A stretch of DNA of 63,095 nucleotides, the filler included, from Dugesia japonica (taxonomy: Eukaryota), in the NCBI GenBank assembly GCA_001938525.1. It is 5 parts of 5 records of this genome, joined end to end, with 100 filler letters (N's around TTAATTAATTAA, not from the genome) between each part and the next. Parts side by side here need not be neighbours in the genome. Positions count along the whole stretch, not along the records: positions 29,730 to 43,304 come from MQRL01599591.1; positions 43,405 to 53,997 come from MQRL01601401.1; 3 more parts are not named here. One strand, 5' to 3'. Below, one piece after another: positions 31,088 through 47,049 of the stretch (position 1 is its first letter; every line of letters begins with the position of its first letter). The translations under genes were made by a program, and so were the position numbers. The notes beneath the pieces were generated by a model. It had not been told where the DNA came from. It saw nothing but the letters and a program-made list of their open reading frames with translations, and made no database searches.

Positions 31088-32995
31088 GTAAGTTAATATT
31101 TTGGATTATTCTTTTAAAATATAAATTTAGCTTTTCTGGTTATATTTGATTATTCAAATTTTACTTTTTATTTTACTAAATATTAAAATAATAATTATTG
31201 TAATATTAAATAGTTTTATCAAGTAAAAATATATAAAAATTTATTATGAAAAGACAGTGAAACAAATAAATGCAACAATTAATTTTAAATTGTTAACAAA
31301 GAAAAATCAATGATTAACCACGGATTTGAAATTTTTATCGAATTATTGAAATTATCGAATTTTAAGGTTCATTTTCTTTTTAACATTTACCTTATTTTCC
31401 AGATTAATCTTATCTTACAAATATTATTATTTTTAATAATGAAATTACAAAGGTTTTTATCTTAATACTACTAAAAAACTTGGTCAAAAATAGTCAAACT
31501 AAAAACAGGTTTAACTAAATAATATCTTAAAAAAGATTTTCACCTGCGCCTTATAGTTCAGATAAAACAGTAACTTAAAATAGCCAATTAGTTAAATTTT
31601 TATTCTCGATATTTGAATGTTGTGATAGGAAACGATAGGTTTTGTTAATATACAGATTATACGCGAGTTACTATGAATTAATACTCAAACAATTTTTATC
31701 AAACAGATTAAATTTCACATCTATTTCCGATAGAAGTTTATTTTTCGATGACTGAGTAAATTTAGGTGATAGATTTTTTTAAAATTAAAATTAAATAAAA
31801 TTAAAATTGTTTAACACACACATACACACATCATTTGCAGCAATTACGAAAAAGAAAAACATAAATTGTGCATGTTGAAATATTTTTAGATAAATATTAA
31901 TTAAAATCATACCATATACTGACTTGGGCTGAGTAATAAGTCTGCGTATTTTTAGGAAAATTCAAAATCAATTTTTTACAATTNNNNNNNNNNNNNNNNN
32001 NNNNNNNNNNNNNNNNNNNNNNNNNNNNNNNNNNNNNNNNNNNNNNNNNNNNNNNNNNNNNNNNNNNNNNNNNNNNNNNNNNNNNNNNNNNNNNNNNNNN
32101 NNNNNNNNNNNNNNNNNNNNNNNNNNNNNNNNNNNNNNNNNNNNNNAATTCTATAAAGACCTGAATAAATGAAAACCAGATGGTTCTGGATCCGGTGAGT
32201 ATACAGGGTAGAGTGAAACATAATGAATGAACTACAGAGTTTGGCCCGTACATTGTTTTAAAATTTAAAATAAAAATCATTTGATTAAATAAGTTTTTAA
32301 AAATTNTTAACAATCTAAGCTGATATTTCAATAGAACGTTAAACATTATTTTATAATCAGTTTCATTAATCAGTTAATTCGGTGTGAAAATCAACTTTTT
32401 TCGATTGGTTGTTTAAATTAACTGATAAGATTTTTTCAAATCTCTAAGAAATGCTATTAACTATCCGAAAAATAATATTGCCATCATTCTTTGATATGTA
32501 CGAAGGCTTGACTCTTTAAAAAAAATATGAATCAAGAGGAGAATAATTTTTAATAGATTCTAAGAGTAATATAACATCTTCTATGTAGCAAGCAATATCA
32601 ATTATCTTTTTAATGAAAAATAATCATACAAAAAGTGCTCTCATCAATTTATTTTTGCATAAAAAGTAAATGGAATATAGCTATGTAGATAAATTTTAAA
32701 AAATTTGTATTAAACCACGATAGTTTCATTTTCAATTGTAAGTTAGAGCCGTACATAATGGTTTAAAGAGCTGAATTTTTCAACATCTAGTGAATAGTAG
32801 AGCAGGTATGTCAAACACGCTGCTCTTAAAATATTTCTGTATTTCAAACATGTTGTAACATTTCTAATATGTTAAAGAAACGTTAGTTGGCGTTTGAATA
32901 TTTAAATCATGATTACTAAAAGTATCCATAAAATTTTATTCAAATCTAAAAGACAAAATTAATAAAACTATTATTTAAACAAGTTTACCTTTTTT

Positions 32996-33247
32996 CATTA
33001 AAATAAAGAAAAAGTTTTGATCAAAATGAAATTTGAATTTCTATAAAAATAAAAAATAAAATTTCTATAAAACAGTCAATTCCTGACGAAGACAAAGTCG
33101 AAATATGGAATTGTTATAAAAACCAAAAAATTTGAATTCTATAAAAATACATTATTTTGATCGAAGCTTTTTCTTTATTTAGATGAAATCTCAAATGCTA
33201 TCAATGATTAAGTCATACAATTATTCTCGCAATAATTCTTGTAAAAC
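32996..33247 (+). mobile_element. Short Penelope-type pseudo-LTR / retrozyme-like insertion
   Basis: 12-bp TSD TTTACCTTTTTT (32984-32995, 33248-33259), an internal inverted repeat (AAAAGTTTTGATCAAAAT / ATTTTGATCGAAGCTTTT), and a hammerhead core. Confidence 0.75.
33077..33113 (+). ncRNA. Minimal type I hammerhead ribozyme motif (cleavage triplet AUG, probably inactive)
   Basis: CAATTC-CTGACGA-A-GAC AAA GTC-GAAA-TATG-GAATTG: 6-bp stem I, CUGANGA box, 3-bp stem II, GAAA, palindromic minimal stem III. Confidence 0.8.
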
Positions 33248-44208: not shown

Positions 44209-44361
44209 AATTTAAAATAAAACCTTCGATCAAAATTTAGTTTTTGATAATAATTCTATATTTCGACTTTGTCTTCGTCAGGAATTGACTTTTTAATCGA
44301 AGCTTTTTATGAATTCTGAAAAGCGATCTGTGATTACCTCCAATAATTATTCTCGCAATAT
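44209..44361. mobile_element. Short Penelope-type pseudo-LTR / retrozyme-like insertion (same family as 32996-33247)
   Basis: 12-bp TSD ACATATCTACTT (44197-44208, 44362-44373). Shares the TCGAAGCTTTTT and AATTATTCTCGCAATA motifs; the hammerhead lies in the inverted half. Confidence 0.8.
44251..44287 (-). ncRNA. Minimal type I hammerhead ribozyme motif (intact core, AUA cleavage triplet)
   Basis: Minus strand reads CAATTC-CTGACGA-A-GAC AAA GTC-GAAA-TATA-GAATTA. Confidence 0.82.
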
Positions 44362-47049
44362 ACATATCTACTTGACCTAATTTTAATATTTCTAAAAAAT
44401 CACTACATTTTATTAATAATTTTTATTGCATTTTTTTCTGCTTCAAATAAATTCTGGTATAAATTGTAGTATAAATTTGTGATACTTATCTTTAACAATT
44501 TGAATCTCATTATTGATACTTATTTTAAAAGTAAAGGACCTGCATTTAAAATTAGTTTTTTAAATATATATTTTTGTAATTATACGCTCATATTAAATGA
44601 TTTAAAACATTAAAATCTATTATTTATTTATTTATTTTTACTTGCCTTCGCAATTTTAACGCTGTCGTGACGATTTTATTGGCGTGATTTTGACGCCGCG
44701 TTTTAATAGGCGTGATTTTGTCTTGTATTTAAATTACAATATATATATCTTTATTTATATTTATCCTTATTTTCTACATAAAACCAATTGTTTGATATCA
44801 CATAATAAATGGGAAATTAAGTTTTAATCATAGAAATTATTATTGATTAATGACAATTCTTGTGAAATAAACGATGGTGTGTTATAACGTGAATAAGTTT
44901 ATTTTAACGTTTAATTATATCACACTGATATGATTTTTTCCAATTATATTCTTCACTTGTAGATATTAGTTTTCATACTAACCAAACTATTAAGCTATGC
45001 GAACAAAGATTCTTCCAAAGTAAATACGTGTTTCATGAAAACAATTCATTAATATTTCTACTTTAAACATGTAAATTGCATTTATTATATCAATTTTAAT
45101 ATTATTGTATTTTCCATTTGTTTTCTCATGTAAACCATCGGCTACAACAAATATGTTTTTGTATATTTTTGTATTTTGTACGATTAATTCTTCAGTAATC
45201 ACTATTCAGTGAATATCACGATGACCGAAATAATATGGTCAAAAGGGTATACTTAACTTACATAATAAATAAATCAGAAACTTATGATAAATTAGTATCA
45301 ATTTCAAGATTAAGAAAAAAAGAGAATTCAACGTAAACCTATTAAAACTTCATATGGATTTATATATGTATTTTTTCATTCTTAATCAAACAAAACAAAA
45401 ATTAGAACTTATTAAAACTATTAATTGTATTTTGACATTTTTTTTTATATCCTAAACGAATTGAGAATTTTCATTTTAATTAAATGAAAGATAGTCATTT
45501 GTCAAACAATCAGTTTAGTCCGTCACAAAAGAGATTTTTATCAATGTTAAAAAAGAATTTTTTATCAGTGAAATTGAGAAATTTACATCTAAATGAGAAA
45601 ATATCTTTTTTCTAAATATGTATTGTTTATAACTTTGCAAATTACTAGTTTGTGTTAAAAATATTTGCTGGTTTAAATTCACTTTCTTCTTCTATAATTG
45701 AAGACTATCAAAATTTGGTTATTATTAATACTAACAAACACAAAGTAATTTGGAAGATTGTACAAAAACTCAATTTTAACTAATCTATGGTTAAACTAAC
45801 TAACTAATCTATGATGTTCACTCTGTATTTATTCTTGGCCTATTGTGACTTGTAATAACAAATGAATTTTAAAATATTATAGACAAAATTCTGGACACAA
45901 GACAGTAAAGAAATGAAGCATCAAAACGTTTTTTACAAATCCGCTTTGAATCAAAAGAAAAGTATAATTACGTTTTAATAATCGACAAGTCAAGTCATTC
46001 ACTACAATTTCATAATTTCTGGCAAAACCATCAAAACGTTATTGTATTAGGATATCAGCAAAATGAACAAAATTCTGAAAATTAATGAAAGTATTAGACT
46101 ATGGATAGAGTACCAATTTTTCTTAATAATATTTCAGGATTGTATATCTCACAAATGACTGCTAGGGAAATTAACGAATTTCGATGCAAAACATTACTTC
46201 ATTTAGATTACTTACTAAGCCTCTCTTTAACAGACTAGAACGTTTTAAATACCTGCAAACCGGTAAATCCTCCGAAACCCACCATCGGTAATTATAGGTA
46301 AATTAGAAAATTTACCAGTAATTACCAGAAATTATTTAACTCCGAATTAATTATAAATATAGACATATTATAACGAAATTTCATTGTAGTGTGATGTATA
46401 ATAATAATAATGATGTTTGTATAAGTTTATTTTATTTTGTTTTAAATTACAAAGTCTTAATACCGGGGTTAATTTGTGATTATTAAAAATTACTAAAAAC
46501 AGTTAATATAAATTTGGAAGAATTTAAAAATAAAAATTTAATTCTTACTTTATTTATTAATATTAAATTAATATTAATAAATAAATTTTAAATACTTTAT
46601 TTCAAATGGTACAAAACATGGTAACAATATTTTGCTAAATTTATAAAATTTTTTTGTTTAAAATTGTACACGTATAATTAACCAATAGAAATGCTGTACA
46701 AAAACATTAAATCTTGCACAAAAATAATTATTTCAAATATAACATATTGATTATATATTTTTATTAATTTTATGATTTTAGTAATCTTATATGATCAATA
46801 ATAATAATTTGTGTTTTTAAAATATTTAATAAGTAGTATGCATTTCATATTTGTTAAAAATGTAAACAATTATATAATAAGATTAATAATGATAGTGATA
46901 ATATTTATTATTTAACGTAGCAATTGTGTATTGTAATGCGAAATTCCATGGAAGTGATTACGTAATATGTCAAATGTCATGCTATTTATGTGTGTATTAA
47001 TTAAGTAATGGAATAAATTTAACAACTAGCCCAGTGTACATACATTCAT

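What the first reader, a model, noticed from the sequence alone, without database searches (positions are those of the whole stretch)
32984..44373. Family of short inverted-repeat insertions carrying minimal hammerhead ribozymes, with 12-bp TSDs
Seen: 32996-33247 and 44209-44361 share CAATTC-CTGACGA-A-GACAAAGTC-GAAA-TAT(A/G)-GAATT, a TCGAAGCTTTT motif and an AATTATTCTCGCAATA tail. Each is flanked by its own 12-bp TSD and has one half inverted. The ribozyme is sense in one copy and antisense in the other. A decayed third copy lies at 60557-60595. Known: Penelope-like elements carry minimal type I hammerheads with a palindromic stem III (acting as dimers) in their pseudo-LTRs and form inverted pLTR structures. 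Inference: this is a non-coding, self-cleaving retrozyme/solo-pLTR family mobilised in trans by a PLE RT such as the one at 26960-28070. The 44251 copy keeps a cleavable AUA triplet; the 33077 copy has AUG.
Basis: partly seen in the sequence, partly recalled or inferred. Interest (0 to 1): 0.75.

Follow-up and report, generated by a model that had tools for sequence, protein, structure and literature searches.

The report
Truncated Penelope retrotransposon ends with ribozymes
These short insertions are the broken-off ends of a known kind of jumping gene (a Penelope-like retrotransposon) in a flatworm genome, each carrying its small self-cutting RNA motif and the first codons of its protein; this is an ordinary, already described structure.

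Summary
Two insertions (32996-33247, 44209-44361) have exact 12-bp target duplications, one inverted part and a minimal type I hammerhead matching the published Penelope-like element (PLE) consensus; a decayed third lies near 60466-60598. The interpretation needs changing. The shared 'tail' is not non-coding: it reads as the first 17-23 codons of a PLE protein. Copy 1 matches the N-terminus of P0001 at 16 of 20 residues, and P0001 (RT plus GIY-YIG) is the closest relative (73%) of the dead RT at 26885-28064. So these are 5'-truncated, partly inverted pLTR-plus-tail ends of that PLE lineage, the structure described for rotifer Penelope. They are not tandem retrozymes. The local RT is broken and cannot have mobilised them. 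Only copy 2 keeps a full core and cleavable triplet; cleavage is untested, and three copies show no covariation. One detail is less ordinary: both inverted arms stop at the start codon and differ from their forward arms at sites shared with other copies, hinting at two RNA templates per insertion (statistically weak). A second hammerhead family lies at 42476-42912. Verdict: new member of a known kind, low interest.

The parts
32984..32995 (.). Copy 1 left target-site duplication (12 bp)
   Evidence: Exact repeat of 33248-33259
32996..33027 (-). Copy 1 inverted arm: 5'-UTR end, stopping at the ATG (+3, with 3 nt of microhomology into the TSD)
   Evidence: 89% complementary to 33154-33188; 4 differences; junction
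33028..33051 (+). Copy 1 junction piece, a direct copy of 33128-33149 (possible template jump); exact inversion point uncertain within 33028-33065
   Evidence: 22 of 23 identical; low complexity
33077..33113 (+). Copy 1 minimal type I hammerhead: helix I 6 bp, helix II 3 bp, palindromic helix III; position 17 is G (33107), outside the NUH rule
33114..33182 (+). Copy 1 spacer between ribozyme and start codon (5'-UTR), with a roughly 25-nt tandem duplication absent from copies 2 and 3
   Evidence: Alignment; distance 75 nt vs 45-47 nt
33183..33247 (+). Copy 1 'tail' = first 22 codons of the PLE ORF; element 3' end at +65 (up to 4 nt of microhomology with the TSD)
   Evidence: 16 of 20 identical to P0001 residues 1-20; 0 of 100 shuffled queries reach the score
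33248..33259 (.). Copy 1 right target-site duplication
44197..44208 (.). Copy 2 left target-site duplication (12 bp)
   Evidence: Exact repeat of 44362-44373
44209..44292 (-). Copy 2 inverted arm: from just upstream of the hammerhead to the start-codon position (reads ATT there, as in copy 3)
   Evidence: 89% over 66 nt to copy 1
44252..44286 (-). Copy 2 minimal hammerhead, intact core, helix I 5 bp, AUA triplet; predicted cut after 44257
   Evidence: Only descriptor hit that keeps NUH
44289..44361 (+). Copy 2 forward arm: end of 5'-UTR, ATG at 44309, 17 codons of ORF; 3' end at +53. Head-to-head junction lies in a short stretch readable either way (about 44288-44300)
   Evidence: Collinear with copy 1, 40 of 51 nt identical, no indel or stop; 9 of 12 residues identical to P0001
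44362..44373 (.). Copy 2 right target-site duplication
60466..60598 (-). Copy 3: decayed, not inverted; hammerhead 60557-60593 with G8 to A and broken palindrome; decayed ORF start from 60515; boundaries uncertain
   Evidence: 17 of 26 nt match copy 1's ORF start in register (18 of 117,850 window positions do as well); imperfect 17/19 flanking repeat 60447-60465/60599-60617 (2 of 400 random zone pairs)
26885..28064 (+). Dead PLE RT fragment of the same lineage (P0001 residues 260-663); 3 stops, one frameshift, an 11-residue deletion; no endonuclease, no pLTR, no TSD found
   Evidence: 73% and 78% identity to P0001
26661..26881 (-). Inverted 5' piece of the RT fragment (P0001 residues 201-271), head-to-head with the forward piece, 52-nt overlap at 85%

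Best explanation
The insertions are severely 5'-truncated copies of an endonuclease-bearing Penelope-like retrotransposon (PLE), reduced to the pLTR end: hammerhead, about 50 nt of 5'-UTR and the first codons of the ORF. Shown: anatomy, TSDs, ORF-start identity, kinship with the RT lineage. Inferred mechanism: the PLE protein (RT plus GIY-YIG) nicks both strands of AT-rich DNA 12 nt apart; one nick primes reverse transcription at a site 50-65 nt inside the ORF start (the 'tail' end), the other primes at the start codon; both cDNAs stop early and are joined head-to-head through short homology, giving an inverted tail-less arm, a forward tailed arm and a 12-bp duplication. The hammerhead is a passenger of the pLTR; the templates were uncleaved RNA, since copies run through the cut site. 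Only copy 2 could still cleave, on the minus strand, and probably only as a dimer or with the PLE protein.
For: Tail translates to the N-terminus of P0001: 16/20 (45.2 bits) and 9/12 (28.2 bits), the two best hits of residues 1-40 in the window. P0001 is the top relative of the window RT (73%) and has RT plus C-terminal GIY-YIG; its N-terminus leads into a block aligned with other PLE N-termini. Copies 1 and 2 are collinear over 17 codons with 11 differences and no indel or stop. PMC3846280 (passages) describes a pLTR holding the first 12 ORF residues, 22 with the tail, an inverted pLTR and 8-10 bp TSDs. PMC11167929 (main text) shows nicking and extension of both strands, two internal start sites in the ORF start that define the tail, AT-rich targets, and unprocessed RNA as main substrate. 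The hammerhead fits the PMC4209133 consensus, and its planarian example has the same helix III and triplet as copy 2. The RT fragment has the same head-to-head inversion with overlap.
Against: The ORF link rests on one unnamed protein: residues 1-260 of P0001 found no other homologue, and the DNA upstream of P0001 was not seen, so a hammerhead in front of a full ORF is not shown. With the whole protein and BLOSUM62 the copy 1 hit is only E 0.05. The copy 2 protein hit alone is marginal: 3 of 100 shuffles reach it, and 1 of 14 other PLE N-termini scored 29.9 bits elsewhere by chance. The end spacing (about 50-62 nt) is longer than the 30-40 nt tails in print. No empty-site allele could be checked. 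No complete element lies in the window.
Confidence: 0.85

Rival explanations
1. A separate non-autonomous family (retrozyme or pLTR-derived SINE-like element) that is transcribed as short units, self-cleaves, and is mobilised in trans by the PLE protein.
For: Three ORF-less copies in 63 kb against one RT fragment. Non-autonomous PLE derivatives and pLTR-driven mobilisation in trans are in print (PMC8557442, PMC3846280 passages; bioRxiv 10.64898/2026.07.22.740005). The 5' ends of the ribozyme-bearing arms all fall shortly upstream of the core.
Against: No tandem units; the three copies have three different architectures and no shared junction; no end maps to the cleavage site; the ORF start is kept in frame between copies 1 and 2; 2 of 3 ribozymes are defective.
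Confidence: 0.1
2. The copies are remnants of longer PLE insertions whose interior was deleted after integration (solo pLTR by recombination or microhomology deletion).
For: PMC3846280 reports solo pLTRs and microhomology deletions; the RT fragment here has lost both ends and carries an 11-residue deletion.
Against: Both TSDs are still exact; both copies keep only the extreme ends; the copy 2 junction lies in a natural short homology expected for annealing during integration. These data cannot exclude a later deletion between two direct pLTRs.
Confidence: 0.04
3. Miniature inverted-repeat DNA transposons with a chance hammerhead-like motif.
For: Short, AT-rich, with inverted arms; Rfam finds no hammerhead; no covariation.
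Against: Arms are not terminal on both sides; the right end is an RT-family ORF start; descriptor 0 of 200 shuffles; the arms differ in extent between copies.
Confidence: 0.01

Closest known systems
Penelope elements of Adineta vaga, e.g. Pen2a_Av (PMC3846280; passages and Discussion read)
   Same: pLTR containing the first ORF residues, optional tail on one arm, inverted pLTR head-to-head, TSD, solo pLTRs.
   Different: Here no ORF body lies between the arms; TSD 12 bp against 8-10; end spacing about 50-62 nt against a 31-bp tail; the partner protein has a cysteine linker.
Minimal hammerheads of metazoan PLEs (PMC4209133; main text parts 1-2 of 4, supplement parts 1-2 of 3)
   Same: Core, extra base after position 9, G10.1-C11.1, palindromic 15.2-16.2, AU-rich flanks; mostly single motifs from truncated PLEs; opposite-strand pairs also noted; a Schmidtea mediterranea example with the same helix III and triplet.
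   Different: Different sequence family; helix II only 3 bp (short end of the published range). Rfam has no model that catches it.
Poseidon of Anolis carolinensis, PAc (PMC11167929; main text read)
   Same: Insert ends inside the ORF start; AT-rich targets; hammerhead next to the start codon; copies made from uncleaved RNA.
   Different: In PAc the cut site is 26 nt downstream of the start codon and RT starts at +111-118; here the cut site is 45-75 nt upstream and ends fall at about +3 and +50 to +65.
Animal non-LTR retrozymes (PMC7229834 passages; bioRxiv 10.64898/2026.07.22.740005 part 1 of 5 and passages)
   Same: Short, low-GC, type I hammerhead, PLE-related, longer TSDs.
   Different: Retrozymes are head-to-tail repeats of 150-450 nt with two or more same-sense ribozymes, expressed as circles; these three copies are single and inverted.
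Hydra, Nematis and Neptune PLE clades (PMC8557442; passages and section 11)
   Same: P0001 has a C-terminal GIY-YIG and a cysteine linker; DKT and CxCX5C as in Hydra.
   Different: P0001 keeps the CCHH motif and a GxxF/Y-type motif that Hydra lacks; clade left open (no reference sequences to build a tree).

Membership tests
PLE minimal type I hammerhead | Core CUGANGAH and GAAA with G10.1-C11.1 and an extra base after position 9 | tested here: met
   Copies 1 and 2 fully; copy 3 has G8 to A (consensus)
PLE minimal type I hammerhead | Helix I and II pairing, palindromic 15.2-16.2 | tested here: met
   30 of 33 cells pair; slid controls 7-49%; palindrome broken in copy 3
PLE minimal type I hammerhead | NUH cleavage triplet | tested here: inconclusive
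   Copy 2 AUA and copy 3 UUC fit; copy 1 AUG does not
PLE minimal type I hammerhead | Compensatory changes among copies | tested here: inconclusive
   0 double-sided and 2 one-sided changes in 3 copies; too few copies
PLE minimal type I hammerhead | Self-cleavage as a dimer or with protein help | not testable with these tools
   Helix III duplex +1.6 kcal/mol; computed dimers swap helices I and II instead
EN+ PLE pLTR/tail insertion | End repeat includes the first codons of the RT-EN ORF | tested here: met
   16/20 to P0001 N-terminus
EN+ PLE pLTR/tail insertion | Inverted 5'-truncated arm head-to-head, tail on one end only | tested here: met
   Copies 1 and 2
EN+ PLE pLTR/tail insertion | Target-site duplication | tested here: met
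   12/12 twice; no empty site seen
EN+ PLE pLTR/tail insertion | Partner ORF with RT and C-terminal GIY-YIG | tested here: met
   P0001: RVT_1 476-573, GIY-YIG 753-794, E 2.8e-4, just under the curated cut-off
EN+ PLE pLTR/tail insertion | Same pLTR flanking a full-length ORF on one DNA molecule | not testable with these tools
   No host genome available; no relative in prokaryotic genome contigs
Animal non-LTR retrozyme | Head-to-tail repeats with two or more same-sense hammerheads | tested here: not met
   one hammerhead per copy, no array
Animal non-LTR retrozyme | Accumulation as linear and circular monomer RNAs | not testable with these tools
   No RNA data
MITE | Terminal inverted repeats at both ends (feature recalled) | tested here: not met
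   Forward arm continues 50-62 nt past the match to the inverted arm
Penelope/Poseidon clade (partner ORF) | No cysteine linker between RT and EN | tested here: not met
   P0001 has a four-cysteine linker at 737-749 (feature)
Hydra clade (partner ORF) | DKT and CxCX5C linker | tested here: met
   definition
Hydra clade (partner ORF) | CCHH motif absent from EN | tested here: not met
   P0001 has C760, C763, H782, H793
Neptune/Nematis clades (partner ORF) | CX2-5CxxC linker plus CCHH; placement by RT tree | tested here: inconclusive
   CCHH present, linker one residue shorter than CxxC; no tree with named references was built

The most novel reading that the evidence does not exclude
Each inverted insertion was built from two different RNA molecules (or two diverged pLTRs of one tandem transcript), one primed from each nicked strand by a PLE dimer, at two fixed sites: the start codon and the tail end. 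The evidence: both inverted arms end at +3; in copy 1, 3 of the 4 arm differences are shared with copy 3; in copy 2 the inverted arm matches copy 3 (ATT for ATG, longer spacer) rather than its own forward arm, which is 6 nt shorter; the TSDs are unmutated. The test is weak (0 of 24 vs 4 of 32 for copy 1 arms, Fisher p 0.13, and TSDs were picked for exactness). If true, short inverted copies would be a genomic read-out of the unresolved second-strand step of PLE integration.
Probability: 0.3. Interest if true: 0.55.

Novelty: new member of a known kind. Interest (0 to 1): 0.25.

Why it matters
As a class this is known: single minimal hammerheads from truncated PLEs are reported by the thousand in animal genomes, flatworms included (PMC4209133), and inverted pLTR-plus-tail structures with TSDs are described (PMC3846280, PMC8557442). 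The value here is modest: a direct sequence link between a hammerhead family and its autonomous partner, and very small complete insertions with clean junctions. How PLEs form inverted structures is stated as open in PMC8557442; counting arm mismatches and end positions over many such copies would test the two-primer, two-template model with genome data alone.

Tried and rejected
Rfam scan at E up to 5: 1 hit, a snoRNA at E 1.6, taken as chance; no hammerhead. Bare core pattern: not enriched; the hit at 23167 lacks helix II and failed the relaxed scan. Search for a pLTR, hammerhead or TSD at the RT fragment: none (best flanking repeat 10 nt, inside the arm). Exact TSD for copy 3: none over 8 nt. 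Prokaryotic genome contigs with P0001: 108 pattern hits, 0 confirmed; the second scan was not used. Relatives of P0001 residues 1-260: only itself among 1279 candidates. Tail hairpin as a start signal: copy 2 z -2.31 (7 of 200 shuffles), copy 1 z -0.06 (83 of 200), 0 of 8 pairs covary; left as a weak lead. Ribozyme folding: copy 1 z -2.11, copy 2 z -0.05, copy 3 z 0.66. Host-gene context: later DHCR24-like exons and earlier Ky-like exons were not found, and 76 short frames beyond 28.6 kb gave only mariner and PIF1 hits above cut-off, so whether the copies are intronic is unknown. I first read copy 3 as ending at the start codon; one search showed a decayed tail, so only two arms end there. (structure string out of register) and the copy 3 slice were my errors; replace them. 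Literature searches for a twin-priming account of PLE inversion (0 papers) and for a PLE structure paper since 2024 (1 unrelated paper) found nothing; the library lacks most subscription papers. Lunse et al. on dimer cleavage was not held and is known only through a review. Repbase and Dfam could not be searched, so the family may already be catalogued.
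Full report
Setting. The window is AT-rich eukaryotic DNA (GC 16-33% per 2 kb) with 3046 masked bases. A long exon at 56502-57509 has only flatworm proteins among its named relatives (13 named of 14 hits, 34-44% identity), so the host is most likely a flatworm; a free-living one is my guess from the GC content and distance, not a result. 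No host genome was available.

Observation. Copy 1 (32996-33247) and copy 2 (44209-44361) each lie between exact 12-bp direct repeats, the longest such repeats at their flanks; 1 of 2617 random zone pairs reached that length. They share 89% over 66 nt around the ribozyme, in opposite orientation, and 72.5% over 80 nt in the tail, in the same orientation. A third copy on the minus strand matches copy 2 at 80% over 91 nt. A covariance model built from the three finds them by construction and one weak further site at 42572-42620 (E about 0.04).

The ribozyme. The motif has the features listed for PLE minimal hammerheads in PMC4209133 (consensus): core, an extra base after position 9, G10.1-C11.1 and a palindromic 15.2-16.2. 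The Schmidtea example there has the same helix III and triplet as copy 2. A descriptor of this form hits 2 sites in the window and none in 200 shuffles. Of 33 pair cells 30 pair, with 2 one-sided and no double-sided changes. Copy 2 is intact (AUA); copy 1 has G at position 17; copy 3 has A at position 8. Against activity: Rfam sees nothing, copy 2 with flanks prefers another hairpin, and the four-pair helix III is unfavourable by 1.6 kcal/mol. That is in line with published low activity and with a protein-assisted PLE ribozyme (PMC11167929), but cleavage here is untested.

The key result. The RT at 26885-28064 has as its best relative P0001 (843 aa, 73%), with RT and C-terminal GIY-YIG. Searching P0001 back against the window gave a hit at 33195-33251, inside the 'tail' of copy 1: 16 of 20 residues identical to residues 1-20. 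With a short-query matrix the first 40 residues hit copy 1 at 45.2 bits and copy 2 at 28.2 bits as the top two sites; 0 of 100 shuffled queries reached the first score and 3 of 100 the second; the N-termini of 14 other PLE proteins hit neither copy (best chance hit 29.9 bits). Copies 1 and 2 are collinear from an ATG (33183, 44309) over 17 codons with 11 of 51 bases different and no indel or stop, so they come from diverged subfamilies of a coding element. The link rests on one unnamed protein, whose N-terminal 260 residues have no other homologue in the search, and whose upstream DNA I could not see.

Anatomy. In element sense the unit is hammerhead, 45-75 nt of spacer, ATG, ORF start. Copy 1 is a 32-nt inverted arm ending at +3, a short duplicated piece, then a forward arm ending at +65. 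Copy 2 is an inverted arm from just upstream of the ribozyme to the +3 position, joined head-to-head to a forward arm ending at +53. Copy 3 is a plain minus-strand copy with a decayed ORF start (17 of 26 matches in register; 18 of 117,850 positions do as well) and an imperfect 17/19 flanking repeat (2 of 400 controls), ending near +50. The ends show 2-4 nt of microhomology with the TSDs. The RT fragment has the same head-to-head inversion, with a 52-nt overlap; it has 5 stops, a frameshift, and no endonuclease, pLTR or TSD.

Mechanism. PMC11167929 shows that a PLE protein nicks and extends both strands of AT-rich DNA, starts reverse transcription at two internal sites in the ORF start whose spacing is the genomic tail, uses mainly uncleaved RNA, and is predicted to be a dimer. 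The copies here fit: one primer at the tail end, the other at the start codon, early termination, joining by short homology, and a 12-bp duplication from the staggered nicks. That chain is inference from anatomy and from the paper. PMC3846280 proposes instead self-priming on an antisense template for head-to-head inversions; these data do not exclude it, though the junctions here are not perfect palindromes.

What may be new. The arms of one insertion do not match each other as well as the TSDs do. In copy 1, 3 of 4 arm differences are shared with copy 3; in copy 2 the inverted arm agrees with copy 3 and not with its own forward arm. This suggests two templates per event. The count is not significant (p 0.13), and later mutation or copying of an older composite could give the same. 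Searches for such an account in print found none, in a library that lacks most subscription papers.

Comparison and membership. The structure matches the Penelope elements of Adineta vaga: pLTR with the first 12 residues, 22 with the tail, inverted pLTR, TSD, and the general PLE description. It works like, and is filed as, a truncated EN+ PLE end; the one feature not testable is the same repeat flanking a full ORF. It fails the defining retrozyme feature, head-to-tail units with two same-sense ribozymes (for the definition; for the test). The partner ORF is not Penelope/Poseidon by its cysteine linker and mixes Hydra-type and Nematis/Neptune-type features; its clade is open.

Papers seen. PMC4209133: main text parts 1-2 of 4, supplement parts 1-2 of 3. 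PMC11167929: parts 1-2 of 4. bioRxiv 10.64898/2026.07.22.740005: part 1 of 5 and passages, no supplements. PMC8557442 and PMC3846280: passages and one section each. PMC7229834, PMC6765202, PMC8969392: passages. Lunse et al.: not seen.

Verdict. Real, correctly spotted, and explained by known PLE biology. New member of a known kind; interest 0.25.

Noticed in passing
window 42476-42912 (runs into N at 42913-43134): A second minimal-hammerhead family: a minus-strand core (C3 42609, U4 to A) and a plus-strand core (about 42894, G8 to A), helix II with a G-C pair where family 1 has A-U, inverted arms 42483-42554/42627-42695 (about 90%), beside an (AAT)n run. The post-ribozyme region is followed about 320 nt on by the next ribozyme, which looks like a short head-to-tail unit; closer to a retrozyme or non-autonomous PLE than the reported copies. 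No match to 15 PLE proteins.
   Followed up: partly
window 26661-28064: The dead PLE RT has its own head-to-head inversion with a 52-nt overlap and both outer ends inside the ORF, not at a pLTR; it follows a DHCR24-like exon ending near 26341.
   Followed up: partly
P0001 (also P0002, P0003, P0005, P0006 in the linker): Motif mix not matching one described clade: DKT and CxCX5C linker as in Hydra PLEs, yet CCHH kept.
   Followed up: partly
window 20102-20284, 25797-26168, 26201-26347 (+): Exons of an FAD-linked, DHCR24-like gene (name recalled; Pfam FAD_binding_4); later exons not found in the remaining 36 kb.
   Followed up: partly
window 56502-57509 (+): Long exon of a Ky-like immunoglobulin-domain (hillarin-like) gene; upstream exons not found in the window.
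   Followed up: partly
window 58567-59944: Mariner-type remnant: 38-nt inverted repeats 58567-58604/59664-59701 and a Mos1 HTH piece at 59789-59944.
   Followed up: no
window 60920-61706 (+): PIF1 helicase fragments, possibly a Helitron remnant, just right of copy 3.
   Followed up: no
window 2500-15300 and 28542-29048: Several decayed LTR-retrotransposon pol fragments (Gypsy-like by recall; integrase core at 28545-29048) and a 1.1-kb direct repeat 12362-13495/14127-15242 at 76%.
   Followed up: no
window 33168-33185: Pyrimidine run ending in AG directly before the ATG of copy 1, like a splice acceptor; the other arms lack the AG, so weak.
   Followed up: no
window 60515-60587 and 33018: Several family differences are CG to CA or TG changes, although window CpG is only mildly low (observed/expected 0.87).
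   Followed up: no
window 23655-23902: 31-nt inverted repeats around a 16-nt tandem array (6.2 copies), a small MITE-like element.
   Followed up: no
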